Shown here piece by piece: positions 28,265-47,560 of a stretch of DNA of 64,000 bases (position 1 is the stretch's first letter; every line of letters starts with the position of its first letter). Under the pieces are notes generated by a model. The model worked only from the letters and a program-made list of their open reading frames with translations. It did no database searches and had not been told where the DNA came from. The stretch lies in the UHGV virus genome UHGV-0248979; one strand, 5' to 3'. A program made the translations under genes and the position numbers. The DNA is from a virus.

Positions 28265-28270
28265 AGGTTG

Positions 28271-28493: not shown

Positions 28494-28499
28494 TTGCTT

Positions 28500-29315: not shown

Positions 29316-29369
29316 CTTTTATGCTCCAATTAATAAAAAAATTAAGGGCACCCGAAGGTGCCTTATACA

Positions 29370-29513
29370 TTAACCACGACCAGTGCACTGTGCAACGGAA
29401 TTACCGTTGTCGATGCAAGTGTCGTAGCCTTTGTCGATATCCAGGTACAGGCAACCCAGAACAACAGCGATAACAACAGCGAAGATAGCTTTTTTGTGTT
29501 TTACAGAAATCAT
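29370..29513 (-). CDS. small lipoprotein (47 aa precursor)
   Basis: Below track cutoff. MISVKHKKAIFAVVIAVVLGCLYLDIDKGYDTCIDNGNSVAQCTGRG: signal peptide with lipobox VLGC; AGGAG SD 8 nt upstream; terminator downstream; conserved promoter-like motif upstream. Confidence 0.5.
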   Translation of the reverse strand: MISVKHKKAIFAVVIAVVLGCLYLDIDKGYDTCIDNGNSVAQCTGRG

Positions 29514-29558
29514 GATATAACTCCTAATTAGGTATTCGATAAATGAGTATTACGTAAA

Positions 29559-29584
29559 CTCTCACCTAGGTAATATATATCTGA
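29559..29584 (-). promoter_or_regulatory. conserved promoter-like motif, copy 2
   Basis: Plus-strand CTCTCACCTAGGTAATATATATCTGA, 45 nt upstream of the lipoprotein start (29513). Confidence 0.45.
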
Positions 29585-29702
29585 AATCTTTTTGAATCCA
29601 TATACCCTCTAGAACGCTCTAAAACGCATTCTAACGCAATTTTCTTTTTAAAGGGTAATTAGTCGTCTTAATGGAGAAATGACTTCTGTGTGGCGTTTAG
29701 GG

Positions 29703-29748
29703 ATAAATAAAAGGTATTCCCGTTACCCACAGAGGTAACGGGAAGTTT
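29703..29748. terminator. hairpin terminator
   Basis: 11-bp stem TTCCCGTTACC...GGTAACGGGAA with A-rich and T-rich flanks; adjacent to stop at 29749. Confidence 0.6.
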
Positions 29749-30549: not shown

Positions 30550-30581
30550 TAACAAATCCTTTAGGTTACGGACAACATAAT

Positions 30582-31901
30582 TTACGTAGCGGTTGTAAAT
30601 TTTTCATTAGTCAACCACAACGTCAATTGACTAATGGTATTAAATTGTGGGGACGCCATCGAACCGCCATCAACGGCAGCTTGGAAAACTTCACCAACCA
30701 ACGTCCCATAACGAGTGTATACACCGTAATTATTCGCATACAGATATTTTACTGCCATACCCGGCTGTAATAAACCGTACGCCGAACGGTTCCAGGTCGT
30801 TGCGGTAAGTGTCCCTCTAGCGGCAGCCAACTTAGAACGACGGGGTTTATCTGTGTCGCTGAAGTGTTCGTTTGGATCAATAGGCGCATTAACAACACCA
30901 CCAGGGTACTGTGTAGGGTCTGCCGCTGAAACAAACGAATCTGACGTCGTTGCCGAAACATCGCCTGGAGAGAAAGAACTTGCACGTCCATCTAAGGCAC
31001 GGATTGAACCCACACGGTAACCCGTTCCCTGATTTAGCGCAAGGGCGTCTTTGTCTTCGAAGGTGTGAACATCGCCACCACAAATCAGATAAATGACGTC
31101 ACCTGCAATGTGACACGTTTTATCTAAATAGGCAACCTTCTCTCTTGGAAGGTTAATTACCACCAGTTTCTTTTTCGCCGTAGAGAATTTCTTAGAGTCC
31201 CACGGCTGAAAGATATGCCAACGGTGTTTATACAAGAAGACACCTAATCCTTGGCTATACACACCGTAACGGTTCTGAATGAAATCGAAAACCGAAAGAA
31301 AACTTTGCGAATCGGGAATCAAAATGTCACGATAAGGCTGTTGTTCTTCTTCCTCGTATTCCACACCAACCAACTGACCTTCTGGTGCATCCCCAGTAGG
31401 TAACGTATCAGCAAGTAATGCACGAACGACACTTAATCCATCCGTCTCGTGGTAAATCCCTCCTACCTGCCGACAGCGAAGGAACCACATCGATTCGTCC
31501 ATCAGTTCCAGCGTCACCACGCCCAACCCTTTTTGATCAGACTCACCCAAGAACATCGTGGGCGATTCCATATCAGGATCGTGATTGTTAACCACGATTC
31601 CTCGGTAGTTCAGCTGAGCAATGGTTTTCTTGTTCATTGTCCGCATCAGGATTTTAACTGATAAATCCCCTTCTGCCGACGACGTAAGAATACGTTGCTG
31701 GCTCAGTGGAATTACCACACTGAGATGTGTGATAGTCGTTAAATCCTGAGCGAAATTACTGGCATGGATTATCGACATGGTTTTGTAAACGTCGATCGTC
31801 ACCCCACGAACTGTAATAAGGGGTACGTAGTCGATGGCCGGTAATCCCGCCGCTTGTGCAATGTGCACGTTTGCTATGTTCTGTAACCGACCAAACGACA
31901 T
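30582..31901 (-). CDS. hypothetical protein
   Basis: 439-aa ORF; ATG at 31901 overlaps upstream stop. Confidence 0.5.
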   Translation of the reverse strand: MSFGRLQNIANVHIAQAAGLPAIDYVPLITVRGVTIDVYKTMSIIHASNFAQDLTTITHLSVVIPLSQQRILTSSAEGDLSVKILMRTMNKKTIAQLNYRGIVVNNHDPDMESPTMFLGESDQKGLGVVTLELMDESMWFLRCRQVGGIYHETDGLSVVRALLADTLPTGDAPEGQLVGVEYEEEEQQPYRDILIPDSQSFLSVFDFIQNRYGVYSQGLGVFLYKHRWHIFQPWDSKKFSTAKKKLVVINLPREKVAYLDKTCHIAGDVIYLICGGDVHTFEDKDALALNQGTGYRVGSIRALDGRASSFSPGDVSATTSDSFVSAADPTQYPGGVVNAPIDPNEHFSDTDKPRRSKLAAARGTLTATTWNRSAYGLLQPGMAVKYLYANNYGVYTRYGTLVGEVFQAAVDGGSMASPQFNTISQLTLWLTNEKFTTAT

Positions 31902-32455
31902 TACAGAATTCCTCCACGTCTACGGTATATCTGTTCAATACGGTGCATAATCGTATCGTTGAACTGATGCCGTTCTGTTTCCAATCGGACTTCGCCAAAT
32001 AACGCTTGTACGGAAACCACCATGGTTACTTCAGGTTTCTTAAAGTAACCGTAACGGTTCGCTACCGGGAACAGTTTACGCGCTAACGCATTAAACTGAC
32101 GCAACCCCTCCATAGGGACTTTACGTATTGTTAAGTGTGGGGTCTGCATGTAATTTAGCCAATCGGCTAAGTGCTCCATGATATACCCGTACACGATAAT
32201 CCCGTCATGTGGGTCGTGGACGTCTAATGCCGCACCCGTTTCTGCATAAACCGCAACTTCGAAAGGTCGCATGTATACGGTCTTTTTATTTAGCAGTATC
32301 GCGCGTGCTTTTTTCTCGTCTTCCGGTAAGAACAACCCATGTTCCTGAGACATATACGTTGAAATCGTCGTCCATTCAGGAACACGCCATCCTACCCACT
32401 TGTGAAACAGCATAAATGCTGCGCTACGTTTTTCAGCCACGTTAATCCCTCGCAT
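31901..32455 (-). CDS. hypothetical protein (start uncertain)
   Basis: Track ORF 31901-32542 starts with TTG and overlaps upstream gene by ~100 nt; internal ATG at 32455 or 32413 more likely. Confidence 0.4.
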   Translation of the reverse strand: MRGINVAEKRSAAFMLFHKWVGWRVPEWTTISTYMSQEHGLFLPEDEKKARAILLNKKTVYMRPFEVAVYAETGAALDVHDPHDGIIVYGYIMEHLADWLNYMQTPHLTIRKVPMEGLRQFNALARKLFPVANRYGYFKKPEVTMVVSVQALFGEVRLETERHQFNDTIMHRIEQIYRRRGGIL

Positions 32456-33812
32456 ACCGTAACAACAAATACACCATCGGGATGTAATAGAATTGCGCAT
32501 CCTTCGGCAAACGGTAAACTTCTTCAAACAACCGCAACGCAATTACTGTCGACAGTGGACGTTTATTCAGATAGAGATATAAACCGTATTCTAATAACGA
32601 ACTGTACGAGCCCTCGTAAAACGTTGGGCTTAACAAATACGGCTTGTAGGTCAGCGGTAAAAACGCAGGGATCGATTCGCCTTCGTTACCCCGATAGTTC
32701 TCCACTTCAACCGGTTCAAACTCCGTCCACTTCGGCCACTGTCCAGGAAAACGTTGTGCCATCCCATAACCTGGTTTTAATTCATCGGTAAAGAATCGGG
32801 TATCCGAAATTAATGACCAGGTCACAGAATTCCGATGCTGCATCGTGCGGAAGGTTTTTACCTGCCAGACACTGGAATCACGTTTGTAATCCGCTAAGAA
32901 CGTTGGCGATTGATTTAACAATGCTGTCCAGACCGTTTCAATATCTTCCACACGCATCGGCGGGTGCGGGTAGATTTGAATATCTTTACCGACGGTCCGT
33001 AAGCCTACAGAGCGTACAAACTGTGCCAAGAACACATCGTAATACGCTCGACTACGCAGCCCATCACTGTGACGATCGTGGGGGAAAAGCAACGTTGCCG
33101 TTTCCCCATCGTAAAACCGTTTTACGTAAGTCTGTTCAATATCCGCAATCGCATCAACAACTTTCAAAAACGCACGGTATTCTTTCGGTGTCAGTAACGT
33201 ATCACCGCCCGTCCAGGCACGTTCAGAAACGTAATAATACTCACGAACCGTACAGCGACGAATGGTTTCTGCAACGCCCGGATCAACTTCAAACAGCAAT
33301 GTATACTCGATGTTATATGTTGCAATTTTGTTATTGGACATCCGCACGACGTTAGTGACGTTGAACAACGCAAACCGTCCGTCTCCAATCGGGGCAACGA
33401 AAAAACACCCTTCATTGGGAATCACCGAGTTCGCCATTGTTGCGGCACCGGACATGGTGAACGTTTTGTTTGTTGTGTCCTGAGAACGATCTAACGGTGT
33501 AGTGACACGCAATTCTAACCCGATGATTTTCTCTACTTGCTGGTCAGGCGTAAGCACCTTCGAATCGAAGAATTTCTTCGCGTCGTTACGTCCTTTCAAG
33601 AAGTTAAAGAAATCAACAGTCCAGGAAGACCCTTCCAGGTATTTCATCAGGTACTGCTTCGGTATACGCTCTAAATCCGTCACCGTTGTACGGGTCGGCT
33701 GTGTCACCACGTTCGTGGTTTCCTTCACGCCGTCTTGCGGTTTATTCAACTCAGGTATCGGGCGTTCCACCGGTTCGAAAGAAGACGGTTTATCACGCTT
33801 CGCTTTGAGCAT
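32442..33812 (-). CDS. hypothetical protein
   Basis: 456-aa ORF; no motif recognised. Confidence 0.5.
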   Translation of the reverse strand: MLKAKRDKPSSFEPVERPIPELNKPQDGVKETTNVVTQPTRTTVTDLERIPKQYLMKYLEGSSWTVDFFNFLKGRNDAKKFFDSKVLTPDQQVEKIIGLELRVTTPLDRSQDTTNKTFTMSGAATMANSVIPNEGCFFVAPIGDGRFALFNVTNVVRMSNNKIATYNIEYTLLFEVDPGVAETIRRCTVREYYYVSERAWTGGDTLLTPKEYRAFLKVVDAIADIEQTYVKRFYDGETATLLFPHDRHSDGLRSRAYYDVFLAQFVRSVGLRTVGKDIQIYPHPPMRVEDIETVWTALLNQSPTFLADYKRDSSVWQVKTFRTMQHRNSVTWSLISDTRFFTDELKPGYGMAQRFPGQWPKWTEFEPVEVENYRGNEGESIPAFLPLTYKPYLLSPTFYEGSYSSLLEYGLYLYLNKRPLSTVIALRLFEEVYRLPKDAQFYYIPMVYLLLRYARD

Positions 33813-35301
33813 TCTCTGTTCCTCGCATGGTAATAATGGTCGAGTTCAGCACCGTCAGTAACACACGGGCTTCTACGTTCGGAATCAGTTTATTAATGTC
33901 ATCGATAACACTCGGCGGTAACACCGGCTTATCCCACCACCAATCAGGAACGTCCCATTTCGGGAACAACCATTCAATTAACACTTTCGCTGCCTGCGGA
34001 TATAACTGTAATGGCCAGAGGTTCATTCCACGCCAGTCAAACATAACCGATTCGGTTAAGTAATAACCCTTATTTACTTTCAGGTCACGACCTTTAAGCG
34101 AAAACGTATTTCCTTCCCAATGGTAGAAACGCGGTTCGATAATCTGTCCCTCTTCGAACAGCTCGACACGGAATACGCCCGTCTGTCCTGTCGGGTCTAT
34201 CGCACGACAATGTTCGATATACGGCAGCAACGCTTCGTTCCACTCGTAGGGTAAATCTTCCGTAGACATCACCTTCGGCGATAACATGTTGTCCGGTTCA
34301 AAAACAACATCTGTACCAAAAATCGGTAAGAGTTTATCTTTAAGCGGAGAGTGTGTACGATGGAACTGTTCCGTGGGGGATAACAAATACGGGAGACGAA
34401 TATACTGACGAGTTTCGTTAATCCACCAGGTCGAATCCAGATTGCGTTGCTGAGAATGGCGGTAAACTAACTCCTCGTTAGATACCCACGGAGGATCTAT
34501 CTCCGGCCAATATTCATCAGGCAGTGGTGTCTGATTGATGATATACGGATACGAAACCACAATCTCTTCAGGGCGCTGATAAGAGAAACGGATAACGAAC
34601 GTTGCTTCCCAGCGGTTTTCATCTTTATCCCAGGCCGGTGTTTGAACGTCATATACCGTTTCTAAACGCGTAGGTGCGTAACGTACCGCAATGGTTTCCT
34701 GACCGCCAGCAACATTAGCTGCCCGAAATACATCGGGCGTAAAATACGCTTTCAAATAGGCTTTAAAATCGTCAAACGTTGATACTCGCGTTCCCGCAGC
34801 AACGTAGCAGGCATTCAACAATTTTAAAGCAGGTTTAGGGATATAATAGAACGCTTCTGACTCCGTCATGGTCGAATATCGACCCATGTCCACTAACGAG
34901 TCTAAACGGTTCGTCCAGCGCAATAACTCATCACGTGAGGCACTGGTACGTCGTAACGTTACTGTTACGTTATACATCGTTCTAACGGGCCAGGCGCGTA
35001 CCTGATCGACACGGTTCTCAAAGAAGTACGGTTCAGCCTGCTGACCAACCTGACGGTTGATTCTTGCCCACTCATCGCGTTCTTCTTCTACTTCAACGTA
35101 AACCTTTTCAGGTGAACTGTACTCTACATCAGTACCGTCACCTAACGTGGAATCTGGTTGATGGGCGCTATTGAATTCATCGAGGAAAACAACCGCTGCT
35201 GTATCGATACCAGACTCATTAAGTACACGTTGTATAACACCATCGATTATTGGTTTGCGAATGGTCGCGTCTAACGACGGAATTTCAAAATACTGTTGCA
35301 T
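33793..35301 (-). CDS. hypothetical protein
   Basis: 502-aa ORF; ATG at 35301 verified. Confidence 0.5.
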   Translation of the reverse strand: MQQYFEIPSLDATIRKPIIDGVIQRVLNESGIDTAAVVFLDEFNSAHQPDSTLGDGTDVEYSSPEKVYVEVEEERDEWARINRQVGQQAEPYFFENRVDQVRAWPVRTMYNVTVTLRRTSASRDELLRWTNRLDSLVDMGRYSTMTESEAFYYIPKPALKLLNACYVAAGTRVSTFDDFKAYLKAYFTPDVFRAANVAGGQETIAVRYAPTRLETVYDVQTPAWDKDENRWEATFVIRFSYQRPEEIVVSYPYIINQTPLPDEYWPEIDPPWVSNEELVYRHSQQRNLDSTWWINETRQYIRLPYLLSPTEQFHRTHSPLKDKLLPIFGTDVVFEPDNMLSPKVMSTEDLPYEWNEALLPYIEHCRAIDPTGQTGVFRVELFEEGQIIEPRFYHWEGNTFSLKGRDLKVNKGYYLTESVMFDWRGMNLWPLQLYPQAAKVLIEWLFPKWDVPDWWWDKPVLPPSVIDDINKLIPNVEARVLLTVLNSTIITMRGTENAQSEA

Positions 35302-35390
35302 TGGCTTGTTCCTTCGTTATAGTCATATCACAGGCGCGAAATGAAAAAAAAATAAAAGGGAACCGAAGTCCCCTTTTACGGTTAAACTAC

Positions 35391-35690
35391 CTATAACAGA
35401 TAAGGTATACCTTCAAAGATAATCTCGTCGTTAGCGAAGCCAACAGACGCTTCCTCGCCCCCAGATGTGGTTGCCCAAATCTCTGCCGCAAAACTCTGAT
35501 TGTTAATCAACAGCCCACGGTTGTTTTCGAACAACACTATCAAGACCAGCCTGACACTTTTCTCTTGATGTAAACGACGTATGAACGCGTGTTTTGCAGG
35601 GGAAGGATACCAAGTGAAGCGCGCTATTTTCCTTTTCGCAACGCTACCTAAAAAGAGCTTTTCTAAGGTTGCAAACTCAGTGCCCATCTC
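35391..35690 (-). CDS. hypothetical protein (start uncertain)
   Basis: Track ORF 35391-35723 overlaps DHFR 3' end; internal ATG at 35690 preceded by GGAAAAGAG preferred. Confidence 0.35.
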   Translation of the reverse strand, partial: EMGTEFATLEKLFLGSVAKRKIARFTWYPSPAKHAFIRRLHQEKSVRLVLIVLFENNRGLLINNQSFAAEIWATTSGGEEASVGFANDEIIFEGIPYLL

Positions 35691-36213
35691 TTTTCCAAAT
35701 CTGATAATGCCAACGTGGAACATCGCTATCCGGTTTGGAAGCGTGCGTTAAGTTATAAACCAGTCCAAACTTGTTACGATCGATTTCAGGAAAGAACGCA
35801 TCTGCACCATCGACTTTAACTTCTACACGTGACAAGTAAATCTTATCCACGTAAGGTAACGCCTGACGGTAAATTTCTGCGCCGCCGATAATAAAGATTT
35901 CCTTAGGATAACCCTTTTTCTCAACCTCGGTTTTGAGGAATTCAATAATCGAACCCATTTCACCCTTAAGGTTAAGCACCCCGTCTATATCGGGCACACC
36001 GCCAGGTCTTCTCGTTAACACAACGTGGTGACGATTGGGTAGGGGTTTATACCCTAACGATTCCCATGTCTTGCTTCCCATCACGATAACTTTACCTGAT
36101 GTAAGTGCCTTAAAATTCTTTAAGTCATCAGGAATACGCCACGGTAGTTTATTGTCTTTCCCGATTTCGTTATTCAACCCAGCAGCAGCTATCATCGAAA
36201 CTGTAATTGTCAT
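35677..36213 (-). CDS. folA: dihydrofolate reductase
   Basis: 178-aa ORF: MIAAAGLNNEIGKDNKLPW...VIVMGSKTWESLG...FIIGGAEIYRQALP matches the DHFR fold signature (compare E. coli FolA LIAALAVDRVIGMENAMPW, VIMGRHTWESIG, VIGGGRVYEQFLP); ATG at 36213 verified. Confidence 0.9.
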   Translation of the reverse strand: MTITVSMIAAAGLNNEIGKDNKLPWRIPDDLKNFKALTSGKVIVMGSKTWESLGYKPLPNRHHVVLTRRPGGVPDIDGVLNLKGEMGSIIEFLKTEVEKKGYPKEIFIIGGAEIYRQALPYVDKIYLSRVEVKVDGADAFFPEIDRNKFGLVYNLTHASKPDSDVPRWHYQIWKRDGH

Positions 36214-36515
36214 TTCTCTATCTCCAGTGAGCCCCTTAAATGCCGTATAAAATCTCTTCGGGTATACCGGCTCGTTTTGTATTGATCGGCCAAATGGTAA
36301 ACGGTGATGTACCGCCCTTTGGCTTCCATGTGCAAATGCGTTATATTACCATCGTTCGTAGGAAGTGGTCTGATCAGTGGAATCATCAAATCCCCATTCC
36401 AACCAGGTTCATTAAGTCTCGGTATCAGTAATCGGATGTCTAGCCGTTTTACGCAATACACCACATTACTTTCCGGCAACTTAACAACACATATCGCATC
36501 GGCTTTGAGTTTCAT
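36210..36515 (-). CDS. hypothetical protein
   Basis: 101-aa ORF overlapping DHFR start by 4 nt. Confidence 0.45.
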   Translation of the reverse strand: MKLKADAICVVKLPESNVVYCVKRLDIRLLIPRLNEPGWNGDLMIPLIRPLPTNDGNITHLHMEAKGRYITVYHLADQYKTSRYTRRDFIRHLRGSLEIEK

Positions 36516-36516
36516 T

Positions 36517-37068
36517 TTAACCTTCCTGATATTGTCTAATTCCGTAATCAGGTAGAATGTTTTCTACTGTGGCTTTCGGTACAACTGAAAGTTGGTTGTA
36601 TAGATTCAACAAATCCTCACGCAGTAACTTCTGCTCGATATCAAGTTTATAGCAAGCCATTTCTTTTTCTAGCGGTTTAAGTAATACAACACGGGTTTGA
36701 AAACCGTCAATAGGCTCAGGAACACGATAACTACGACGACGATAGAACGTTTCCAGCTTCGAATAATCACGAATGTATGTTTTCGTCAGTGTAGAATAAC
36801 CTGCGTCTAACATAAACTTGTAGAACGGGCGTAAAGCGATGAAGCGATTATATTCCAAGTGCTCTGGAATATAGAATTCGTAATTGCCGTAAGTGAGCGT
36901 AGAGAGTTGAGAACCATTACAATGCACACAGTTAATAAAAATAGCCAGTCCAATCATTACCGGGCGTGGGACGATAAGAGTTTTATCGCCAAACTGAATA
37001 CGAAAGATTTCCTGCTGTAGGCTGGTTTCAGATACGACTTCAGCGTCTAAGATATTAAATTTGTTCAT
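36517..37068 (-). CDS. hypothetical protein
   Basis: 183-aa ORF; ATG at 37068 with AGGAG SD; terminator downstream. Confidence 0.5.
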   Translation of the reverse strand: MNKFNILDAEVVSETSLQQEIFRIQFGDKTLIVPRPVMIGLAIFINCVHCNGSQLSTLTYGNYEFYIPEHLEYNRFIALRPFYKFMLDAGYSTLTKTYIRDYSKLETFYRRRSYRVPEPIDGFQTRVVLLKPLEKEMACYKLDIEQKLLREDLLNLYNQLSVVPKATVENILPDYGIRQYQEG

Positions 37069-37121
37069 TTCTATTCTCCTAAAGGTCGAAAAAAATAAAG
37101 CCCTCCGAAGAGGGCTTTAAC

Positions 37122-37763
37122 TTACAAGTTTTCAAAGAAAGTAACAACTGCTTCCGAAAGGCTAAGTTCAAATAGTCCGAACGTGTTCTCTTCTTCGAAT
37201 TCTTTACTGGCTATTAGGGGTAATAATTTAAAACAATCGATAGCACCATCAGTAACTTTCAACACACGTGGGATTCTTTTCATCCCTTCTACAAGTTCTG
37301 ATACCGTTTCCATAACAGCTTCCGCCGATTTTTCAATGGTATTATACACAGCATCGTTCTCTGTTGGTGCAATTAAATGAAAGAAACAAACAGAATCGTA
37401 CATTCCATTTTCTTTTTCACGCAACGCTACGTGGCTATCAAGAAATGCATGGTACGTTACTCCGTCGTATTCGGCACTCCCGATCCCGTTGGTTTTAAGT
37501 TTGGCGTTCAGTTCGTTAGCAAAGCTGTCCAGTTTATCTTGGTTTATGGCTTTGAAAACAAACTCGCGTGTACCGACTAATAAGCCACCCTTCGTTTGCT
37601 CTTTAGGTTTCTTACCAGAAAGTAAGCGCAACCAGGTAGAAATAGAAATCACTTCTACCGGATTTAAAGTAACAACTTTACTGTTCGGTGCCACCATCGT
37701 AACGACACCTTTCTCCATAGACACAACACCATCAACAAAATCAGTTAAATTAATGCGGCTCAT
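37122..37763 (-). CDS. hypothetical protein (candidate early gene)
   Basis: Track gives 37122-37790 (TTG); ATG at 37763 preceded by AGGAGA preferred; conserved promoter-like motif at 37815-37838. Confidence 0.5.
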   Translation of the reverse strand: MSRINLTDFVDGVVSMEKGVVTMVAPNSKVVTLNPVEVISISTWLRLLSGKKPKEQTKGGLLVGTREFVFKAINQDKLDSFANELNAKLKTNGIGSAEYDGVTYHAFLDSHVALREKENGMYDSVCFFHLIAPTENDAVYNTIEKSAEAVMETVSELVEGMKRIPRVLKVTDGAIDCFKLLPLIASKEFEEENTFGLFELSLSEAVVTFFENL

Positions 37764-37814
37764 GATATTTCTCCTAAACGTAATAAACAAGTCGTAAAGA
37801 GATTATTGTATAAT

Positions 37815-37838
37815 CCCACCTAGGTAATATATATCTGA
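37815..37838 (-). promoter_or_regulatory. conserved promoter-like motif, copy 3
   Basis: Plus-strand CCCACCTAGGTAATATATATCTGA, 51 nt upstream of ATG 37763; flanking CAAGTCG / TAAAGAG / ATTGTA blocks shared with copy 1. Confidence 0.45.
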
Positions 37839-37852
37839 AATTATTTTTAATC

Positions 37853-37900
37853 GAAAAAAAAAAGAAAAGAGAGAACCACCCTGTAATAGGGTGGTTCTCT
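37853..37900 (-). terminator. intrinsic terminator downstream of paralogue A
   Basis: A-run then 13-bp stem AGAGAACCACCCT...AGGGTGGTTCTCT. Confidence 0.65.
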
Positions 37901-37917
37901 TACTAAACAATCAGAGA

Positions 37918-39183
37918 TTATTTAGATTTTTCGTAAGCAGCGATACCTGCGGAGATATAGCCGTTCAGACCGCCAGCCAGATGTTTCTGAGTAGAAGCAA
38001 TAACTTTCTCACCCAGAGACAGGGCCTGGTTAATGCTGGTGATGTAACGACGGGCAGCACGTACAGCTTCGGTCAGTTCCGGTTTTTCGTCGATCTTAAC
38101 TTTATCGACTTCTTTCAGGAGCTTATCGATATTATCTTCAAAAGTTTTCCGCGCACTTTCGACTTTACGATAATCCTGAACGTTCTTCTCAATCTGTTTG
38201 CCCACTTCATTGAAGAAGGCGTTGATTTTAGCCAATTCGCCAGCAGACGGAGTTTTCACACTAGTTTCAACGCTATTTTCTGCTGCAACAAAGGTGGAGC
38301 TGAAACCGCCTTCGTTGTCATACTCGGTTTTCAACGCCATGTTACCGAGTTTGAAGTTTTGTTGACTGTCTTTTTCGGCCAGTTCGGTAAAGTCGGCTTT
38401 CAGTTTTTCAACTTTAGCACCATTACCTTTGGTAACATCGGAAACCATTTCAGCAGCTTTAGCGGCCATGGAAGGCATCTTAGTGCTATAGAATGTGGAA
38501 ACCTGGCTAAGGATACCTTTCAGTTTCGGAATATTATCGCCGACGAACTTGCCATCGATAGACAGAGACTTGATAAACCCACCAGAGATCTCATCTTTCT
38601 TCTGTTTGCCCAGCTTACGAATAACTTCATCGTATTTCTTAGCACGCGCCTGGATAGATTTACCCTGGTTGGAGAATTTCAGCCAACGATCTTTGATCTT
38701 ACGGCCTTGTTCTTTCAGCCATTCCCAGATACGACCCAGGAAGGCTTTAATGTCTTCCCACAGGGATTCACGAGCCACCTGGCGACGGTTACGAGAACCG
38801 TAGGATTCGTGTGCAACGGAAGAACGGTGATCGAAGTTCCAACGAGAACGGATAGATTCCTGAGCAACGTCCAGCGCGGTCGCAGCGTCGTCCGGCATAT
38901 CTTCTTCGGCGTCCATCGGGTCTTCGCCGTCTTCGCCAGCACCTTCACCGTCAGCAGCGGCCTGAGCTTCATCCAGAACATCCAGCTGAGCGTCAGTTTC
39001 GTCGCCGTCTTCTGCCAGCAGTTCAGCGTCAGCGTCCAGGGCTTCGATCGGTTTGGTGTCATGCTCGATATCGGCCAGAGTGCCTTCTACGGATTCTGCT
39101 GGCAGTTCGATGCCGTCTGGAACTACAGTAGCGGTAGACTCCATAGACTCACGAGCAATTTTGTTTTTGTAGAAATTCGCCAT
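37918..39183 (-). CDS. abundant virion protein candidate, paralogue A (acidic N-terminal region)
   Basis: 421-aa ORF, ATG at 39183 verified; host-optimised codon usage; shares MANF N-terminus, VAQESI after the acidic region, LGKQKKDEISGGFI core and AYEKSK C-terminus with paralogue B; strong terminator downstream. Confidence 0.6.
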   Translation of the reverse strand: MANFYKNKIARESMESTATVVPDGIELPAESVEGTLADIEHDTKPIEALDADAELLAEDGDETDAQLDVLDEAQAAADGEGAGEDGEDPMDAEEDMPDDAATALDVAQESIRSRWNFDHRSSVAHESYGSRNRRQVARESLWEDIKAFLGRIWEWLKEQGRKIKDRWLKFSNQGKSIQARAKKYDEVIRKLGKQKKDEISGGFIKSLSIDGKFVGDNIPKLKGILSQVSTFYSTKMPSMAAKAAEMVSDVTKGNGAKVEKLKADFTELAEKDSQQNFKLGNMALKTEYDNEGGFSSTFVAAENSVETSVKTPSAGELAKINAFFNEVGKQIEKNVQDYRKVESARKTFEDNIDKLLKEVDKVKIDEKPELTEAVRAARRYITSINQALSLGEKVIASTQKHLAGGLNGYISAGIAAYEKSK

Positions 39184-39265
39184 TTTAAGCTTTTCCTCTA
39201 AGGGGAACGCGTTGTTCCCCTGATGATTTATTTCAAGAACTGTACGGAACTACGAATCTAAATTA

Positions 39266-40537
39266 TTATTTAGATTTTTCGTAAGCACCGATACCAGCAC
39301 CCAGGTAACCATTCAGACCGCTAATAACGGTGTTAGCAACATAGCTAACGGCGCGGTTCAGGGTCTGGTAGTTCTTAACAGACCAATCAGCAGCTTGACG
39401 TGCGTTACGCAGGCCATCCCATTTGCTTTCGTCTTTCTCGTTATTCAGCTCTTTGGTTGCTTTTTCAGCAGCCTGTTGCAGTTTCACGATTTCAGAATCG
39501 TAAGCACGGAAATCTTTCAGTACGGCTTCGAAGCCTTTACCGATTGCTTCCAGAGCAGAAGCAGCACCAGCCATTTCAGAAACAGACGGAGTTTTCACGT
39601 CTTTATCGTCAGAAGCGTCACCGGTGCTCATGAAAGCAATTGCGGTGAACTTGTGGCCGCCAGCCAGTTCTTTAGTACCAGCCTGAATGTATGCGTTGCC
39701 TGGCAGTGCCAGCAGTTTAGACGCATCGCCTTTTTCAAAATTCGGCAGAGAATGCAGTTTAGACGCTGCTTTACCGAACAGGTCTACAGGCTGATCGCCG
39801 CGCATTGCTTTGAAGGAATCGTCGTCACCCTTGCTCACAGCAGTTACAGCTTCACCGGCCTGTTTTTCCAGAGCACTGATGGAACCTTTAGCTTTACCAG
39901 CGGTAACTTCTTTCGCAATAGCGATAGAGCCAGCAGCATCGAATTTACCTTCGATAGACAGCTTGGTGATAAACCCACCAGAGATCTCATCTTTCTTCTG
40001 TTTGCCCAGCTTACGCAGCATTTCCTGATATTTCTTCGCACGTTTCTGTGCGGTCTTACCGACGTTGAAATATTTCAGTTTCAGGTCTTTGATCTTCGCA
40101 ATCACTTCTTTACAGAACTGAATGAAACGATCGTAAAGATCTTTCAGGGTTTCTTTCCAACCTTCCTGGGCAGCAGCAGTCATACCACGACCACGGCGAT
40201 AGGATTCGCGAGCCAGTTTAGTACGTTCCAGGCACCAACGACGTGCGATGGATTCCTGTGCCACTTCGTGCAGGGCAACCGCTTCTTCCGGCATTTCTTC
40301 ACCGTTAGCAACGGCTTCTTCCGCCTGTTCGATAGCGTCTTCAGTACGCTCGGTATCGGCAGCCAGGGTTTCACCGTCGGTTTCCAGCTGATCGAGCTGA
40401 CCGTCGATAGATGCAACGTCCGCAAGTTGGACGTCCAGGTTCTCTTCTGCCGGTTCAACGTTGCTGATACCGTCGATTACTTCATCGGCCGCTTCCATCG
40501 ATTCACGAGCGGCGCGAGTTTTTGCGAAATTTGCCAT
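39266..40537 (-). CDS. abundant virion protein candidate, paralogue B (acidic N-terminal region)
   Basis: 423-aa ORF, ATG at 40537 verified with AAGGAAA SD; same conserved blocks as paralogue A. Confidence 0.6.
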   Translation of the reverse strand: MANFAKTRAARESMEAADEVIDGISNVEPAEENLDVQLADVASIDGQLDQLETDGETLAADTERTEDAIEQAEEAVANGEEMPEEAVALHEVAQESIARRWCLERTKLARESYRRGRGMTAAAQEGWKETLKDLYDRFIQFCKEVIAKIKDLKLKYFNVGKTAQKRAKKYQEMLRKLGKQKKDEISGGFITKLSIEGKFDAAGSIAIAKEVTAGKAKGSISALEKQAGEAVTAVSKGDDDSFKAMRGDQPVDLFGKAASKLHSLPNFEKGDASKLLALPGNAYIQAGTKELAGGHKFTAIAFMSTGDASDDKDVKTPSVSEMAGAASALEAIGKGFEAVLKDFRAYDSEIVKLQQAAEKATKELNNEKDESKWDGLRNARQAADWSVKNYQTLNRAVSYVANTVISGLNGYLGAGIGAYEKSK

Positions 40538-40596
40538 TTCGTTTATTTCCTTTGGTTATATAACCCAATTACACGCCCCTAGAATGAGGGGCCCCC

Positions 40597-41157
40597 TTAG
40601 GGACGTGCGATTTTCAAAAACACTGCTAACGACGAGATCATGTCGGACAACCCGTTCGGGCGTGTCATCCAGCGTGCCAGCAGTTCATGGTCTGCATAAG
40701 ATAAAAGACGTTTGCTACACTCAATGGATTGGTGAGCGGAGCCCATATTACGTACAGTACCTCGGCGACCAAACGCAGCAGCTAACAGACGCGAGCCTAA
40801 TGCACCCGTCTGTTCAACATTCTTCGTGTTACGAACATCGTTCATATACGACGACAGCAAAGTCGACCACTGCCCTAACGTCACATTACGTCGCTTACCA
40901 TCCAGCAGGAAGGCTACGCTTTCGTTATAAAACGTATTAAAGGTAAATCCGACCTGCGGATATTCGTCATATAATACCTGCTGCAATGAGTCAGCAGCCA
41001 TCAGACGAAAATACGGTAAAAGAACGGCAGCCGCTTCCAATGTTTTGTGAATAACTTCGTCATCGTGTGTGTCGATTGGGTTCTTCGATAAAATCGACAT
41101 GTAGGATTTAATGCGCTCTACAGCAACACTAAATTCTGGACTATCGTGCTCAAACAT
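40597..41157 (-). CDS. hypothetical protein
   Basis: 186-aa ORF; no motif recognised. Confidence 0.5.
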   Translation of the reverse strand: MFEHDSPEFSVAVERIKSYMSILSKNPIDTHDDEVIHKTLEAAAVLLPYFRLMAADSLQQVLYDEYPQVGFTFNTFYNESVAFLLDGKRRNVTLGQWSTLLSSYMNDVRNTKNVEQTGALGSRLLAAAFGRRGTVRNMGSAHQSIECSKRLLSYADHELLARWMTRPNGLSDMISSLAVFLKIARP

Positions 41158-41174
41158 TCGCCTCTCCTAACGGT

Positions 41175-42110
41175 TTACGCTAAACCGTATTTCTTTTCAA
41201 GACGCTCACGCTTGTGCTTGAGTTCCATCAGATGCTTTTCACTGATTTCAATCAGTTTCTCAATGTGGGCATCACCCTTACCTTCTGCGACTTGCTTTTT
41301 GTAAAGTAAGATACGCAGTTCCGCCGCTTTCGCCGCTTCTACACACTCGTCGTACTTATCCATCTGCCGTTCAGCGATATTTAAACGTACGCGCAGTATC
41401 AGTGAGATTGGGAACGGTACACTGCTCATTCCCAGTGGGTCAACGGAGCTCGAACCGAACTGTTGCGCCAACTCACCGTAAGTTTCGTCGTTAAAGATCG
41501 CTTCAGGAATTTCCGCATAATCCGCTTTCAGTTTATTCAGCGGCGTTGCCAGCACACGGACAGCAATGCAGTAAGAAATAGAACGAGTATTGAGGTATTG
41601 AAGGTCATTCGGACCGACGCCTTTTACTTCAATATTCGAGCCTTCTACGGCGGCTATTTCTTCTGCGGTTACGTAGTTAAGTAAGGTGGCACTGTAGCCT
41701 GTAAAGAAATCAATCAGGTCAAGCAGTCTGAGCACCGTTAATTTATTAAACGTCATTGAAGACGTGACTAACGCTTTACCAATGTCACGTGTAATACATT
41801 GGTCTAAGAAAGAACGCAATTGTAGCGTGTTTTCCATCGAGGCAACGATGTATTCCAGCATCGAAGGATTACGGAGACCTTTGGCTTCCAGACCGGAATT
41901 CCGCAGGTACTTAACCAAATCATCCGACATGTCCTGCACCGTTTTCGATTTGAACGGCTTGCCTTCTTTCGACGCTACCAGCTCTTGCAGAGACTGGAAA
42001 CGCGGTAAAAGTTGTTCACCAATCGCATCACAGTTTGATGAGAGCTGGTTTTTCAAGTTTGTTGCTTCAAAGCTCGGCAACAACATAGCGAGCATATTCG
42101 GGATTGCCAT
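41175..42110 (-). CDS. hypothetical protein
   Basis: 311-aa ORF; no motif recognised. Confidence 0.5.
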   Translation of the reverse strand: MAIPNMLAMLLPSFEATNLKNQLSSNCDAIGEQLLPRFQSLQELVASKEGKPFKSKTVQDMSDDLVKYLRNSGLEAKGLRNPSMLEYIVASMENTLQLRSFLDQCITRDIGKALVTSSMTFNKLTVLRLLDLIDFFTGYSATLLNYVTAEEIAAVEGSNIEVKGVGPNDLQYLNTRSISYCIAVRVLATPLNKLKADYAEIPEAIFNDETYGELAQQFGSSSVDPLGMSSVPFPISLILRVRLNIAERQMDKYDECVEAAKAAELRILLYKKQVAEGKGDAHIEKLIEISEKHLMELKHKRERLEKKYGLA

Positions 42111-42120
42111 GCCTTACCCC

Positions 42121-43227
42121 TTAAAGAACTGGCTGAGCGCCAGAGCGATACGCTTCGATGATTTTATTCACATCGGCGCTACCAGACTTCGATTTACTAA
42201 AGTCAGATTTATCGAGTTCCTGAGAGCCATTCTGACCACGGGTATAAATAGTGACACGATTCCAGGTGGTGTCCACAACAACATAGTAGACAGTCAGGGT
42301 GTCTTTGAATACACGTTGACGGATATTGAAATCGTCGAATTCGCCACCTAGCTGTGCGGTCAAGCCGTCGATTGTGTCTTGAGAAACCACCATGACGGAA
42401 GAAGCGTTATTGATAGACGGTGCCAGAGACAGCAAACCAGATAACCAGTTACCGTTCTTCTTCTCCATCATCTTACGGTAATAGCCGGACTTATCGCGAT
42501 AACGGTTCTTACGATATTCTTCTACCAGGTCGTTACAGAACGCGATGTCTTTTACGTAACTCAACGCACCAACACGTGCACGCAGCCAACGTTCCCAGAA
42601 TGTTTTCGTCTGGTCACTGAACGCAATCAGCGTTTCAATTTGTTCGGTCGGTAAGGATTTCACATCCAAACGTAGGCGCATTGGGAGTTCGACTTTATTA
42701 CCGTCACGTTCGAATGTTACTGAGAACATTTTCCCGTTGGACAACCCTTCTTGATCGAAAAGCAGTTTAATCGGTTCACCTTTCCCGCCACTGACCGAAC
42801 CTTTTGATTCCTGGGCGACCCGTCGGGCAGATTCGCCGACTGCAATGCCGATTTTATCGTATGATGGTAAACCATAACGGGCAGATTCGCCGACTGCAAG
42901 CGCTGCTAAGCGGGAACCGGTGCGGACTGCGTTATCAAGCGCACTACGACGTGTGCTGACCTGATCCAGGGTACCGATAATGTCAACATCCGGTACACCG
43001 GTTAACAGTGAGATAGCCGTTAATTGGTTTCCTGCCAGCAAAATTTGGATTTTCTCCAGAATTCCCGGAAGGTAATCTAAACCCAGCAGGCTTTGTTCGA
43101 CTAAGGTAATGTGCTCGTTATAGAGCACTGAGTTAAATTCCTCCATCGACTCCGCACGCGAACGAAACAGCATGGGAAGTCTGGAGAGGAAAGAGACAAC
43201 GCTTGTCTCAAACGTTTTTTCTAACAT
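42121..43227 (-). CDS. hypothetical protein with internal 18-codon duplication
   Basis: 368-aa ORF; 22-nt exact direct repeat at 42824-42845 and 42878-42899 encodes repeated AVGESAR segments. Confidence 0.5.
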   Translation of the reverse strand: MLEKTFETSVVSFLSRLPMLFRSRAESMEEFNSVLYNEHITLVEQSLLGLDYLPGILEKIQILLAGNQLTAISLLTGVPDVDIIGTLDQVSTRRSALDNAVRTGSRLAALAVGESARYGLPSYDKIGIAVGESARRVAQESKGSVSGGKGEPIKLLFDQEGLSNGKMFSVTFERDGNKVELPMRLRLDVKSLPTEQIETLIAFSDQTKTFWERWLRARVGALSYVKDIAFCNDLVEEYRKNRYRDKSGYYRKMMEKKNGNWLSGLLSLAPSINNASSVMVVSQDTIDGLTAQLGGEFDDFNIRQRVFKDTLTVYYVVVDTTWNRVTIYTRGQNGSQELDKSDFSKSKSGSADVNKIIEAYRSGAQPVL

Positions 43228-43253
43228 TTTCCTAATGAACTCCGGAGTTAAAG

Positions 43254-44552
43254 ATGAGTGACGAGACAGATAAGAACGATCCGGGGTATGACCCGAATAC
43301 TGACTACGACGATTCTCTCCACAATCCGAATAACGCGGACGCGGTGCCTTCGGTCGCAGGATATTTCGACGGACGGATTAGTAATGCTAACCCCCCGACG
43401 CCTTACGACGCTAATACTGAACTTACGGCATGGAACGATCGTATCCGTCTTACTGTAGGTTTGGGTCTTGCTGCGCAGCGTTTGACCAACCCCTACATGG
43501 GGTTCAACCATATGATGGCGTCTAACCCCACGCCAATCAACCGAGAATACGGTGGACTAACTTTTATTACCCGGCCCGATTTTAACCTGTGCTACGACAA
43601 CATTGCTAAGTCACGTAAAATGTCGAACATGGCAATGCAGCCAAAGGACTCCATAGATTATTCGATTTTAGCTGCGCTTGACCCTGATTTTGAACTCGGG
43701 TTTACAGACGCACCTATGGAAAACGGTAGACGAAAGAATCGCTTAGGTACGCCGTTTATGCCTCAAGTAAAATTCGATAATCTACAAGCGTTCATACCAA
43801 TACTCAGTACGCAACTGATCAGCCTTAGTGGTGCACCCGATCAATCGATTGATAACTGGATGGCAAGTGAAGGTTTAATGCGTGAACAATGGGGGATGGT
43901 TGACTCTACCCACGAAGTTAACAATAGCTTTTCCATCAGCATGTCATTAAACAACCCTTATGGCGACCCGTTAATGAAAATGATGGGCGTGTGGCTAGAG
44001 TATATGTCTGGCGTGAAGATGGGTAAATTCCGTCCGAAGATGCGCAACTCCATTCAACGCAGAATCGATTATCAGTCACGAATTTACGGGATGCGTTACG
44101 ATGCTCTGGGAAACATCACCCGCTTCTGGACGATTTGTGTCGCGTGGCCAATGAACGATAACGCAGGACAAATGGCGAACGTTGATAACTCCAAACCGCA
44201 GTTAAACGACGACGTTACGATTACTATTAACTGGCAAGCTATCGGAGCACGGTTTAACGATCCACTATACATGGAAATGTTTAACCGCACCGTCTCCATT
44301 TTTAATCCGGATATGCTCCCACAGCCAGGCTCTATTCAATCGGGCAACTTCATCCCGATTGCTAGTGACCAATTAGTGCCCATCGCGCCACAATTACTGC
44401 CGTTATTCAACTATTACGGTTATCCGCACATCGATTCCGTACGACGCAAACTTACCTGGTATGTTTACCAGGCAGACTACCAACATATTCTCAAGAAAGC
44501 GGGATTACTGGATAATGCTAATGCCGCTTCACTACCGACAGGTAATAACTGA
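43254..44552 (+). CDS. hypothetical protein (possible structural protein)
   Basis: 432-aa ORF; stop overlaps next start (TGATG at 44550-44554). Confidence 0.5.
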   Translation: MSDETDKNDPGYDPNTDYDDSLHNPNNADAVPSVAGYFDGRISNANPPTPYDANTELTAWNDRIRLTVGLGLAAQRLTNPYMGFNHMMASNPTPINREYGGLTFITRPDFNLCYDNIAKSRKMSNMAMQPKDSIDYSILAALDPDFELGFTDAPMENGRRKNRLGTPFMPQVKFDNLQAFIPILSTQLISLSGAPDQSIDNWMASEGLMREQWGMVDSTHEVNNSFSISMSLNNPYGDPLMKMMGVWLEYMSGVKMGKFRPKMRNSIQRRIDYQSRIYGMRYDALGNITRFWTICVAWPMNDNAGQMANVDNSKPQLNDDVTITINWQAIGARFNDPLYMEMFNRTVSIFNPDMLPQPGSIQSGNFIPIASDQLVPIAPQLLPLFNYYGYPHIDSVRRKLTWYVYQADYQHILKKAGLLDNANAASLPTGNN

Positions 44553-47506: not shown

Positions 47507-47560
47507 GAAAAAATAATAAAAGTTACCCTACTCCTCCGGGAGTAGGGTAATCTTTTTTTA
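47507..47560. terminator. bidirectional terminator between convergent genes
   Basis: A-rich run, stem TTACCCTACTCC...GGAGTAGGGTAA, T-run; stem nearly identical to the 52871-52920 terminator. Confidence 0.7.

What the first reader, a model, noticed from the sequence alone, without database searches (positions are those of the whole stretch)
37918..40537. Tandem paralogous high-expression proteins with acidic N-terminal regions ending in a shared A-Q-E motif
Two ~420-aa paralogues share MANF N-termini, long acidic regions ending in VAQE-SI, a conserved LGKQKKDEISGGFI block and identical AYEKSK C-termini, with codon usage matching the capsid candidate. An acidic propeptide ending in A-x-E fits the S/A/G-x-E cleavage motif I recall for phiKZ-type prohead proteases, suggesting abundant processed internal head proteins.
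Basis: inference. Interest (0 to 1): 0.55.

Follow-up and report, generated by a model that had tools for sequence, protein, structure and literature searches.

The report
Jumbo-phage internal head protein pair
These two neighbouring genes encode the well-known, very abundant "internal head" proteins of a phiKZ/SPN3US-type giant phage, which the phage's own protease trims during head assembly; this is an ordinary new member of a studied family.

Summary
Two minus-strand genes, A (37918..39183, 421 aa) and B (39266..40537, 423 aa), are paralogues (35% identity, E 8e-56). They share the MANF start, an acidic N-terminal region ending in VAQE|SI, the LGKQKKDEISGGFI block, the AYEKSK end, and codon usage that only the major capsid gene shares.

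Both are strong members of Pfam PF12699 (phiKZ internal head proteins). By synteny and 58–68% identity they are the orthologues of Salmonella phage SPN3US gp54 (A) and gp53 (B). In SPN3US these are the most abundant internal head/ejection proteins (>600 copies each). Published mass spectrometry shows that prohead protease gp245 cleaves them after A-x-E.

VAQE|SI is one of four conserved A-x-E|S sites. By homology the maturation cut lies 30 residues downstream, at ARE-139|SLWEDIK in A and AQE-125|GWKETLK in B. This leaves basic 31–32 kDa mature proteins (pI 9.3–9.4).

No processing data exist for this phage, and the protease gene lies outside the window. The finding is a new member of a known kind and of low interest.

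The parts
39266..40537 (-). Gene B: internal head (ejection) protein precursor, 423 aa, orthologue of SPN3US gp53
   Evidence: ORF. PF12699 at 245 bits. PHROG 2497 at E 5e-148. Syntenic with SPN3US 53606..54883. 68% identity to the SPN3US-type cluster P0044.
37918..39183 (-). Gene A: internal head (ejection) protein precursor, 421 aa, orthologue of SPN3US gp54
   Evidence: ORF. PF12699 at 206 bits. PHROG 2497 at E 3.5e-123. 64% identity in the alignment (58% by tblastn) to SPN3US 54961..56220.
40163..40537 (-). B propeptide, residues 1-125 (net charge -19), with four conserved cleavage motifs: ARE-12|S, AQE-95|S, ARE-111|S, AQE-125|G
   Evidence: Sites listed and charges. Conservation across 47 non-redundant homologues is 47/47, 41/47 (+6 S/G/T-x-E), 46/47 and 40/47. 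The numbering is identical to the MS-mapped SPN3US gp53 sites ARE-12, AQE-95 and AQE-125 (PMC10052503 Table 2).
38767..39183 (-). A propeptide, residues 1-139 (net charge -27), with four conserved cleavage motifs: ARE-12|S, AQE-109|S, AHE-126|S, ARE-139|S
   Evidence: All four sites are kept in 12/12 non-redundant gp54-type homologues. AHE-126 and ARE-139 align with the MS-mapped SPN3US gp54 sites AQE-124 and ARE-137.
40247..40264 (-).
   Evidence: Coordinates verified. The equivalent site AQE-95 of SPN3US gp53 is detected as cleaved by MS.
38851..38868 (-).
   Evidence: Coordinates verified. The motif is invariant in the family. Cleavage at the equivalent gp54 site is not reported in SPN3US, so this is inferred from the paralogue.
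40142..40171 (-). Predicted maturation cleavage site of B: AQE-125|GWKETLK
   Evidence: It is identical in context to the SPN3US gp53 semi-tryptic peptide (E)GWKETLKDLFER, which defines the mature N-terminus.
38746..38775 (-). Predicted maturation cleavage site of A: ARE-139|SLWEDIK
   Evidence: It matches the SPN3US gp54 semi-tryptic peptide (E)SLWDDIK, which defines the mature N-terminus at ARE-137.
39269..40162 (-). Mature B, residues 126-423: 32.2 kDa, pI 9.30, net charge +10; predicted bundle of long helices plus a small beta subdomain; contains the basic conserved block LGKQKKDEISGGFI (39968..40009)
   Evidence: AlphaFold2 model with mean pLDDT 83.2 and pTM 0.81.
37921..38766 (-). Mature A, residues 140-421: 31.4 kDa, pI 9.43, net charge +11; contains LGKQKKDEISGGFI (38572..38613)
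37870..37900 (-). Intrinsic terminator-like hairpin (13-bp stem followed by a T-run) 18 nt after the stop codon of gene A; probable end of the transcript carrying B and A
   Evidence: It is the top-ranked hairpin in both scans.
39201..39221 (.). GC-rich hairpin without a T-run in the 82-nt spacer between B and A
   Evidence: Its function was not tested.
40597..41157 (-). Upstream neighbour, a PhiKZ_gp91-like vertex-binding protein (SPN3US gp52 position). It anchors the conserved head module: gp89-like 42121..43227, gp90-like 41175..42110, gp91-like, then the PF12699 genes
   Evidence: Pfam PF25618 at 30.4 bits. Similarity to phiKZ gp89 at E 2e-35 and to gp90 at E 9e-13.

Best explanation
A and B are the two major internal head ('ejection') proteins of an SPN3US-like jumbo myovirus. 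They belong to the phiKZ internal head protein family (PF12699) and are the orthologues of SPN3US gp54 and gp53.

Proposed mechanism, with the basis for each step:
1. Both are made late and in very large amounts as ~46 kDa precursors. This is inferred from MCP-like codon usage, and from SPN3US, where each is present at more than 600 copies per head.
2. The precursors carry a strongly acidic N-terminal propeptide and assemble inside the prohead. In protease-deficient SPN3US they form a T=1 inner shell under the T=27 capsid.
3. The phage's S80-family prohead protease (the gp245/gp175 type, encoded outside this window) cuts after Glu at four conserved (V/A)-A-x-E|S sites: ARE-12, VAQE-95/109, A(R/H)E-111/126 and A(Q/R)E-125/139.
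4. This chops the propeptide into pieces of about 12, 83-97, 16-17 and 13-14 residues.
5. The basic (pI 9.3-9.4), helix-rich 31-32 kDa C-terminal domains stay in the DNA-filled head and are probably ejected into the host with the genome. This has been shown for phiKZ gp93 and Goslar gp58.

What was shown here: paralogy, family membership, orthology, site conservation and register, charge asymmetry, codon bias and the predicted fold. What is inferred by homology: the cleavage itself, copy number, location in the head and ejection.
For: - Paralogy: 35% identity, E 8e-56.
- Family: PF12699 at 206 and 245 bits against a gathering score of 27; PHROG 2497.
- Orthology: colinear gene order with SPN3US and Asesino, running DHFR, three small ORFs, two IHP genes, gp52-like, gp51-like, gp50-like, then the tail tube gene on the opposite strand. 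Six-sequence alignment at 64% identity to the respective orthologues.
- Published experiments on the orthologues: abundance and A-x-E processing (PMC5694885); site table giving gp53 ARE-12/AQE-95/AQE-125 and gp54 AQE-124/ARE-137 (PMC10052503); inner T=1 shell made of gp53/gp54 (PMC7552025).
- Site conservation: the four N-terminal A-x-E|S sites are kept in 85-100% of 47 gp53-type and 12/12 gp54-type non-redundant homologues. A-x-E occurrences in the mature part are mostly not conserved.
- The sites fit the gp245 logo: P4 V/A, P3 A, P1 E, P1' S.
- phiKZ gp93 aligns to the family profile at 95.9% probability, with SLE-13|S, GME-119|S, ALE-137|N and SLE-156|D in register with the four sites.
- The same protease logic is preserved elsewhere in the window. 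All 7 MS-mapped gp245 sites in the orthologues of gp45, gp47, gp50, MCP gp75 and portal gp81 are retained as A-x-E.
- A 91%-identical relative (NZ_CP134650.1) encodes an S80 protease 81% identical to gp245.
- Charge: propeptides net -19 and -27; mature parts net +10 and +11, pI 9.3-9.4.
- Codon usage clusters only with the MCP gene.
- The AF2 model is a helix-rich bundle, consistent with the 'alpha-helix-rich fold' reported for PF12699 proteins.
Against: - There are no proteomic or structural data for this phage, so all processing, abundance and location claims rest on orthologues at 58-68% identity.
- The protease gene is not in the window.
- Cleavage at the VAQE|S site has been observed only in gp53, not in gp54.
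- Seven of 47 gp53-type homologues lack A-x-E at the maturation position, so site usage may vary.
- Ejection into the host has been shown for phiKZ and Goslar family members but is only assumed for SPN3US gp53/gp54.
- The molecular role of the mature domain is unknown even in the model phages. The 2026 Goslar preprint calls it 'a key unsolved mystery'.
Confidence: 0.9

Rival explanations
1. The proteins are classical scaffold/core proteins. They build the prohead interior and are then degraded and expelled entirely, like T4 gp22 or P22 gp8, so no mature product remains in the virion.
For: They form an inner shell in protease-deficient SPN3US capsids, and that shell disappears on maturation. 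They have multiple protease sites and an elongated helical predicted fold typical of scaffolds.
Against: The mature C-terminal fragments of the orthologues are among the three most abundant proteins of purified SPN3US virions and tailless heads. The conserved A-x-E|S sites are confined to the first 125-139 residues, and the rest of each protein carries no conserved site. A partial scaffold-like role for the precursor is compatible with the best explanation.
Confidence: 0.05
2. One reading: a single maturation cleavage at VAQE|SI removes only the acidic region, residues 1-95 in B and 1-109 in A. The mature proteins then begin SIARRW.../SIRSRW....
For: The acidic stretch ends precisely at VAQE. 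The motif is invariant in both lineages. The site is cleaved in SPN3US gp53 as AQE-95.
Against: In SPN3US the dominant mature N-termini are (E)GWKETLK for gp53 after E125 (57 PSMs) and (E)SLWDDIK for gp54 after E137. Both lie 30 residues downstream and agree with the gel mobilities. These sequences are conserved in B and A, and two further A-x-E|S sites between VAQE and the maturation site are 98-100% conserved.
Confidence: 0.05
3. Division-of-labour variant: the large acidic fragment released between ARE-12|S and VAQE|S (B 13-95, A 13-109) is not discarded. It stays bound to the inner face of the capsid lattice as a cementing fibre, as phiKZ gp93 residues 14-84 do. Only the C-terminal domain becomes free internal/ejected protein.
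For: In the phiKZ capsid cryo-EM structure, gp93 residues 14-84 start exactly at the SLE-13|S14 cut and bridge neighbouring hexamers. That segment aligns with B residues 13 to about 69 in the profile comparison. SPN3US mass spectrometry found unexpectedly many peptides from the gp53 propeptide region in heads.
Against: Sequence similarity in this segment is weak. AF2 predicts one long helix here (34-77) rather than the arm/helix-loop-helix/arm seen in phiKZ. At more than 600 copies each, most fragments could not find a capsid site if only about 180 such sites exist, as in phiKZ (three per asymmetric unit). For most SPN3US substrates the propeptides were not detected in heads.
Confidence: 0.25

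Closest known systems
Salmonella phage SPN3US gp53 and gp54 ('paralog family A', high-abundance ejection proteins)
   Same: Same genomic position and order, and the same lengths (425/419 aa against 423/421 aa). The N-terminal ARESxE and C-terminal AYEKSK are identical or nearly so. The four A-x-E|S sites are the same; B has identical numbering and A is offset by 2. The acidic-propeptide/basic-mature layout matches, as does the roughly 35% divergence between the two paralogues.
   Different: Identity to the orthologues is only 58-68%. The middle third of the proteins (about residues 215-330) is poorly conserved. The second site in A is AHE rather than AQE. Nothing has been measured experimentally for this phage.
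Pseudomonas phage phiKZ gp93 (and paralogues gp92, 94-97, 162, 163): inner-body proteins, Pfam PF12699
   Same: Same Pfam family. Same gene neighbourhood downstream of the gp89/gp90/gp91 homologues. N-terminal cleavage after x-x-E|S at residue 12/13, with further [S/A/G]-x-E motifs in register. Helix-rich C-terminal domain.
   Different: phiKZ has 7-8 paralogues at about 100-200 copies each, whereas this phage has two dominant ones plus one distant relative. The phiKZ protease accepts S/A/G at P3, while the sites here are almost all Ala, as in SPN3US. Similarity is detectable only at profile level. phiKZ forms a visible inner body, which has not been reported for SPN3US-type heads.
Phage T4 internal proteins IPI/IPII/IPIII and the gp21 prohead protease system
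   Same: Same logic: small basic proteins packaged with the DNA, targeted to the prohead by an N-terminal sequence, trimmed after Glu by a prohead serine protease, and ejected into the host (established knowledge; the parallel is drawn in PMC5694885).
   Different: There is no sequence or fold relationship. T4 propeptides are about 10 residues long, not 125-139. The T4 motif is (L/I)-x-E. Copy numbers and sizes also differ.
phiKZ gp86 (PDB 8y6v chain G), an inner vertex-complex protein

Membership tests
Pfam PF12699 phiKZ_IP (phiKZ-like internal head proteins) / PHROG 2497 | Whole-protein match to the family HMM above the curated gathering score | tested here: met
   A scores 206 bits (E 1.4e-60) and B 245.3 bits (E 1.6e-72) against a cut-off of 27, covering profile positions 2-387 of 387. 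PHROG 2497 matches at E 3.5e-123 and 5.1e-148.
Pfam PF12699 phiKZ_IP (phiKZ-like internal head proteins) / PHROG 2497 | Located in the conserved head-gene module, downstream of the gp89/gp90/gp91 homologues, as a tandem paralogue array | tested here: met
   Upstream neighbours match phiKZ gp91 (Pfam PF25618), gp90 (E 9e-13) and gp89 (E 2e-35). The order is identical to SPN3US and Asesino.
Pfam PF12699 phiKZ_IP (phiKZ-like internal head proteins) / PHROG 2497 | Alpha-helix-rich C-terminal domain | tested here: met
   The AF2 model (pLDDT 83, pTM 0.81) has helices 119-175, 201-236, 319-366 and 371-417, plus a small beta subdomain. This is a prediction, not a solved structure, and no family member has a solved helix-rich domain.
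Pfam PF12699 phiKZ_IP (phiKZ-like internal head proteins) / PHROG 2497 | Physically inside the capsid at high copy number and ejected with the DNA | not testable with these tools
   Only indirect support is available: codon usage clusters with the MCP gene alone, and there are published data on the orthologues.
Substrates of S80-family prohead protease (SPN3US gp245 / phiKZ gp175) | N-terminal propeptide carrying the protease's recognition motif (A-x-E in SPN3US, S/A/G-x-E in phiKZ) at the positions mapped by mass spectrometry in the orthologues | tested here: met
   B has ARE-12, AQE-95 and AQE-125, the same numbers as gp53. A has AHE-126 and ARE-139, matching gp54 AQE-124 and ARE-137. The sites are conserved in 85-100% of homologues and fit the P4 V/A and P1' S preferences.
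Substrates of S80-family prohead protease (SPN3US gp245 / phiKZ gp175) | The cognate protease is encoded by the same genome | tested here: inconclusive
   tblastn of gp245 against the window finds nothing (best E 2.4). This is expected from synteny, since gp245 lies about 165 kb away in SPN3US. A 91%-identical relative encodes an S80 protease 81% identical to gp245. All 7 mapped sites of five other substrates in the window keep A-x-E.
Substrates of S80-family prohead protease (SPN3US gp245 / phiKZ gp175) | Actual cleavage in vivo, shown by semi-specific peptides or a mobility shift | not testable with these tools
   This needs virion mass spectrometry or in-vitro digestion with the recombinant protease.
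ClyA/Hbl/Nhe-type alpha-pore-forming toxins (considered because of weak Foldseek hits) | Significant structural match, plus a hydrophobic beta-tongue or head segment | tested here: not met

The most novel reading that the evidence does not exclude
The conserved four-site layout may encode a division of labour rather than simple propeptide disposal. The two short basic linkers are discarded. The basic helical domain is released to travel with the DNA. The VAQE|S site would then be a functional boundary between a structural capsid component and an ejected cargo protein, both made from one gene.
Probability: 0.25. Interest if true: 0.35.

Novelty: new member of a known kind. Interest (0 to 1): 0.12.

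Why it matters
It matters little beyond annotation. These exact proteins, and dozens of close variants, sit in public Salmonella, Shigella, E. coli and Enterobacter assemblies labelled 'hypothetical protein'. NCBIfam has no model for the family. They can now be named confidently as internal head (ejection) protein precursors with predicted maturation sites.

The family's molecular function after ejection remains an open question in jumbo-phage biology. This locus adds no new way to test it. Its only contribution is a clean example showing that four protease sites, not one, are under selection in both paralogue lineages.

Tried and rejected
2. Sequence search of all PDB chains with the family profile gave only a chance prefoldin hit at E 0.43. 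The phiKZ capsid entry was found only by fold (gp86), not through gp93.
3. Prohead protease in the window: none found.
4. Further close paralogues in the window by tblastn: none. A distant third family member was found only by HMM.
5. Absence of sigma70-like promoters in 37.0-43.4 kb (0 found against 7.4 +/- 2.7 expected). The effect is not sustained over 20-40 kb (23 against 30.3 +/- 4.7), so I did not interpret it.
6. The C-terminal AYE|KSK also fits A-x-E. However, the Glu is conserved in only 20/47 gp53-type homologues, P1' is Lys, and no such cleavage is reported, so I do not consider it a site.
7. The phiKZ proteolysis paper (Thomas et al. 2012) could not be retrieved. The mapped gp93 sites other than E13|S14 therefore could not be checked against the alignment.
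8. The site numbers printed in PMC10052503 for gp50 (ATE-127) and for the second gp47 site (ALE-111) do not match my count on the RefSeq ORFs (145 and 107). For gp50 the gap would be closed by a start at Met19; for gp47 I could not explain it. I therefore compared those two sites by sequence context only.
Full report
**1. Observation**

The window holds two adjacent minus-strand ORFs at exactly the stated coordinates: A (37918..39183, 421 aa) and B (39266..40537, 423 aa). An 82-nt spacer separates them. Each has a Shine-Dalgarno-like GGA/GAGGA 8-10 nt before its ATG. BLASTP of A against B gives 35% identity over the full length, E = 8e-56.

- the MANF N-terminus;
- VAQESI at A 38851..38868 and B 40247..40264;
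- LGKQKKDEISGGFI at A 38572..38613 and B 39968..40009;
- the C-terminus GLNGY..AGI.AYEKSK.

The segment up to VAQE is very acidic. A 1-109 is 32% D+E with net charge -31, and B 1-95 is 29% D+E with net charge -24. The next 30 residues are basic, with pI above 11.

The codon-usage claim also holds. Of 56 ORFs of at least 100 aa in the window, A and B are the only genes whose synonymous codon usage resembles that of the major capsid gene (22750..25044). Their correlations are 0.91 and 0.93, against 0.73 or less for every other gene.

**2. What the proteins are**

Both match Pfam PF12699 ('phiKZ-like phage internal head proteins') end to end, at 206 and 245 bits against a gathering score of 27. 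Both also match PHROG 2497 'internal head protein'.

The window comes from an SPN3US-like jumbo myovirus. Its nearest phage records are Erwinia phages phiEaH2, Stratton and Asesino and Salmonella phage SPN3US, at only about 75% DNA identity. Gene order around the pair is identical to SPN3US and Asesino:
- DHFR and three small ORFs;
- two 'internal head protein' genes;
- a gp52-like gene, then two virion structural genes;
- the tail tube gene on the opposite strand.

In a six-sequence alignment, A groups with SPN3US gp54 and Asesino gp71 at 64% identity. B groups with SPN3US gp53 and Asesino gp70. The duplication therefore predates the split of these phages.

The module is also recognisable in phiKZ. 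The three genes upstream of B match phiKZ gp91 (Pfam PF25618), gp90 (E 9e-13) and gp89 (E 2e-35). In phiKZ these precede the gp92-gp97 PF12699 array.

**3. What is known about the orthologues**

| Source | Finding |
|---|---|
| PMC5694885 | gp53 and gp54 are, with the MCP, the most abundant virion proteins (more than 600 copies each). They lie inside the capsid.
| PMC10052503 | Sites mapped by mass spectrometry: gp53 at ARE-12, AQE-95 and AQE-125; gp54 at AQE-124 and ARE-137. The mature N-termini are (E)GWKETLKDLFER and (E)SLWDDIK. Recombinant gp245 cleaves gp53 in vitro. |
| PMC7552025 | In protease-deficient capsids, uncleaved gp53/gp54 form a T=1 inner shell that is remodelled on maturation. 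|
| PMC11297242 | In phiKZ, gp93 residues 14-84 remain bound to the inner capsid surface. |
| bioRxiv 2024 and 2026 | gp93 is injected into the host, as is Goslar gp58. |

**4. Mapping this onto the window**

B carries ARE-12|S, AQE-95|S, ARE-111|S and AQE-125|G, the same residue numbers as SPN3US gp53. A carries ARE-12|S, AQE-109|S, AHE-126|S and ARE-139|S, which is gp54 numbering plus 2.

I collected 128 homologues and reduced them to 47 gp53-type and 12 gp54-type sequences below 92% identity. Conservation of the four sites:

| Site (B numbering) | Kept as A-x-E in gp53 type (of 47) | Kept in gp54 type (of 12) |
|---|---|---|
| ARE-12 | 47 | 12 |
| AQE-95 | 41, plus 6 as S/G/T-x-E | 12 |
| ARE-111 | 46 | 12 |
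| AQE-125 | 40 | 12 |

P1' is Ser in nearly all cases. By contrast, A-x-E triplets in the mature region are mostly not conserved. All eight sites fit the published gp245 logo of P4 V/A, P3 A, P1 E and P1' S.

A profile comparison places phiKZ gp93 on the family alignment at 95.9% probability. Its SLE-13|S, GME-119|S, ALE-137|N and SLE-156|D fall in register with the four sites.

However, it lies inside the propeptide. The predicted maturation cuts are 30 residues further on:
- AQE-125|GWKETLK in B (40142..40171);
- ARE-139|SLWEDIK in A (38746..38775).

The predicted products are basic proteins of 32.2 kDa (pI 9.30) and 31.4 kDa (pI 9.43). The propeptides carry net charges of -19 and -27.

**5. 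Is the protease system present in this phage?**

The protease gene is not in the window. This is expected, because gp245 lies about 165 kb from gp53 in SPN3US. Two lines of evidence suggest the system is intact.

First, the window contains orthologues of five other mapped gp245 substrates. All seven of their mapped sites are retained as A-x-E:

| SPN3US substrate | SPN3US site | Window site |
|---|---|---|
| MCP gp75 | ATE\|YYTNKD | AQE\|YYTNKD |
| gp50 | VATE\|S | VAQE\|S |
| gp47 | AVE\|SSRPG | ATE\|SLRPG |
| gp47 | ALE\|S | ALE\|S |
| gp45 | ASE-20\|SIGF | AAE\|SIKF |
| portal gp81 | ATE-161\|S | ATE-161\|S |
| portal gp81 | AQE-254\|NARTGL | AHE\|NARTGL |

Second, a 91%-identical relative deposited as a 222-kb 'plasmid' of Enterobacter ludwigii encodes an S80 protease 81% identical to gp245.

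**6. Structure**

An AlphaFold2 model of B, built from a 59-sequence alignment, is confident (mean pLDDT 83, pTM 0.81). It shows very long helices at 34-77 (in the acidic propeptide), 84-100, 119-175, 319-366 and 371-417, with a small beta subdomain at about 276-315.

**7. Mechanism and rivals**

The best explanation has confidence about 0.9. A and B are made late in large amounts as acidic-headed precursors. They are built into the prohead interior and cut at four A-x-E|S sites by the S80 prohead protease. Their basic helical domains are retained with the DNA and probably ejected.

The rivals are:
- A pure scaffold that is fully removed. The virion abundance of the orthologues' mature fragments contradicts this.
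The mapped N-termini of the orthologues contradict this.
- A division-of-labour variant, in which the 13-95/13-109 fragment stays on the capsid wall like phiKZ gp93 14-84. This is possible and is consistent with the excess gp53 propeptide peptides seen in SPN3US heads, but it is untested.

**8. Novelty and verdict**

The family, its processing and even the individual sites are already documented for close relatives. This is a new, previously unannotated member of a known kind.

Interest is low (0.12). The residual value is better annotation, and the observation that all four sites, not only VAQE, are under purifying selection in both paralogue lineages.

Noticed in passing
window 5206..6339 (-): This is a third, distant member of the same family, 377 aa long. 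It matches PF12699 at 29.2 bits, just above the cut-off of 27, and PHROG 2497 at E 1.9e-73. It is 59% identical to the SPN3US protein encoded at 89362..90495, which is gp94 by gene count. It has no long acidic region. It does carry an 'IRKRW...VALE|S' module resembling the 'ESIRKRW...VAxE|S' part of the A/B propeptides. The SPN3US papers count only gp53/gp54 as PF12699 paralogues, but they mention gp94 as a possible additional gp245 substrate.
   Followed up: partly
whole window (tested with 37918..40537 and 22750..25044): The exact A, B and MCP protein sequences occur on ~220-227 kb contigs in isolate assemblies labelled Shigella flexneri, Shigella sonnei, many Salmonella serovars, E. coli and Enterobacter, always as 'hypothetical protein'. 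Relatives at 91% identity are deposited as ~222 kb 'plasmids' in complete genomes of E. coli strain 98232 (NZ_CP173450.1) and Enterobacter ludwigii (NZ_CP134650.1). No record in the phage collection exceeds about 77% DNA identity over more than a third of the tested 3-kb region. So an undescribed SPN3US-like jumbo phage lineage is recurrently co-assembled with enterobacterial isolates. The cause could be a carrier state, pseudolysogeny or contamination; I did not determine which.
   Followed up: partly
window 22750..25044, 37918..39183, 39266..40537: The MCP gene and the two internal head protein genes form a separate codon-usage class. Their mutual RSCU correlation is 0.91-0.93, while none of the other 53 ORFs exceeds 0.73. 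This suggests translational selection acts only on the three most abundant virion proteins.
   Followed up: yes
window 20000..39999 and 37000..43400: Intrinsic-terminator-like hairpins are about twice as frequent as in shuffled sequence (36 against 19.8 +/- 3.6, and 13 against 6.7 +/- 2.4). Strong ones sit directly after gene A (37900..37870) and after the MCP gene (a bidirectional hairpin at 22710..22735). Sigma70-like promoters are absent from 37.0-43.4 kb (0 against 7.4 +/- 2.7) but are not significantly depleted over 20 kb.
   Followed up: partly
window 14626..17343, 22750..25044, 42121..43227, 47558..49228, 49683..51050: These are the orthologues of the other SPN3US prohead-protease substrates: portal gp81, MCP gp75, gp50, gp47 and gp45. 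All are present, at 41-81% identity, and all keep A-x-E at the seven mapped cleavage positions. The listed GTG start of 49683..51050 probably over-extends the gene by 11 codons relative to the SPN3US gp45 start, MGHWQ/MGYWQ.
   Followed up: yes
window 39201..39221: A GC-rich 9-bp hairpin (GGGGAACAACGCGTTCCCC) without a T-run lies in the spacer between genes B and A. It could be an RNA processing or stability element, or a partial terminator that tunes the ratio of B to A. I did not check whether it is conserved in relatives.
   Followed up: no
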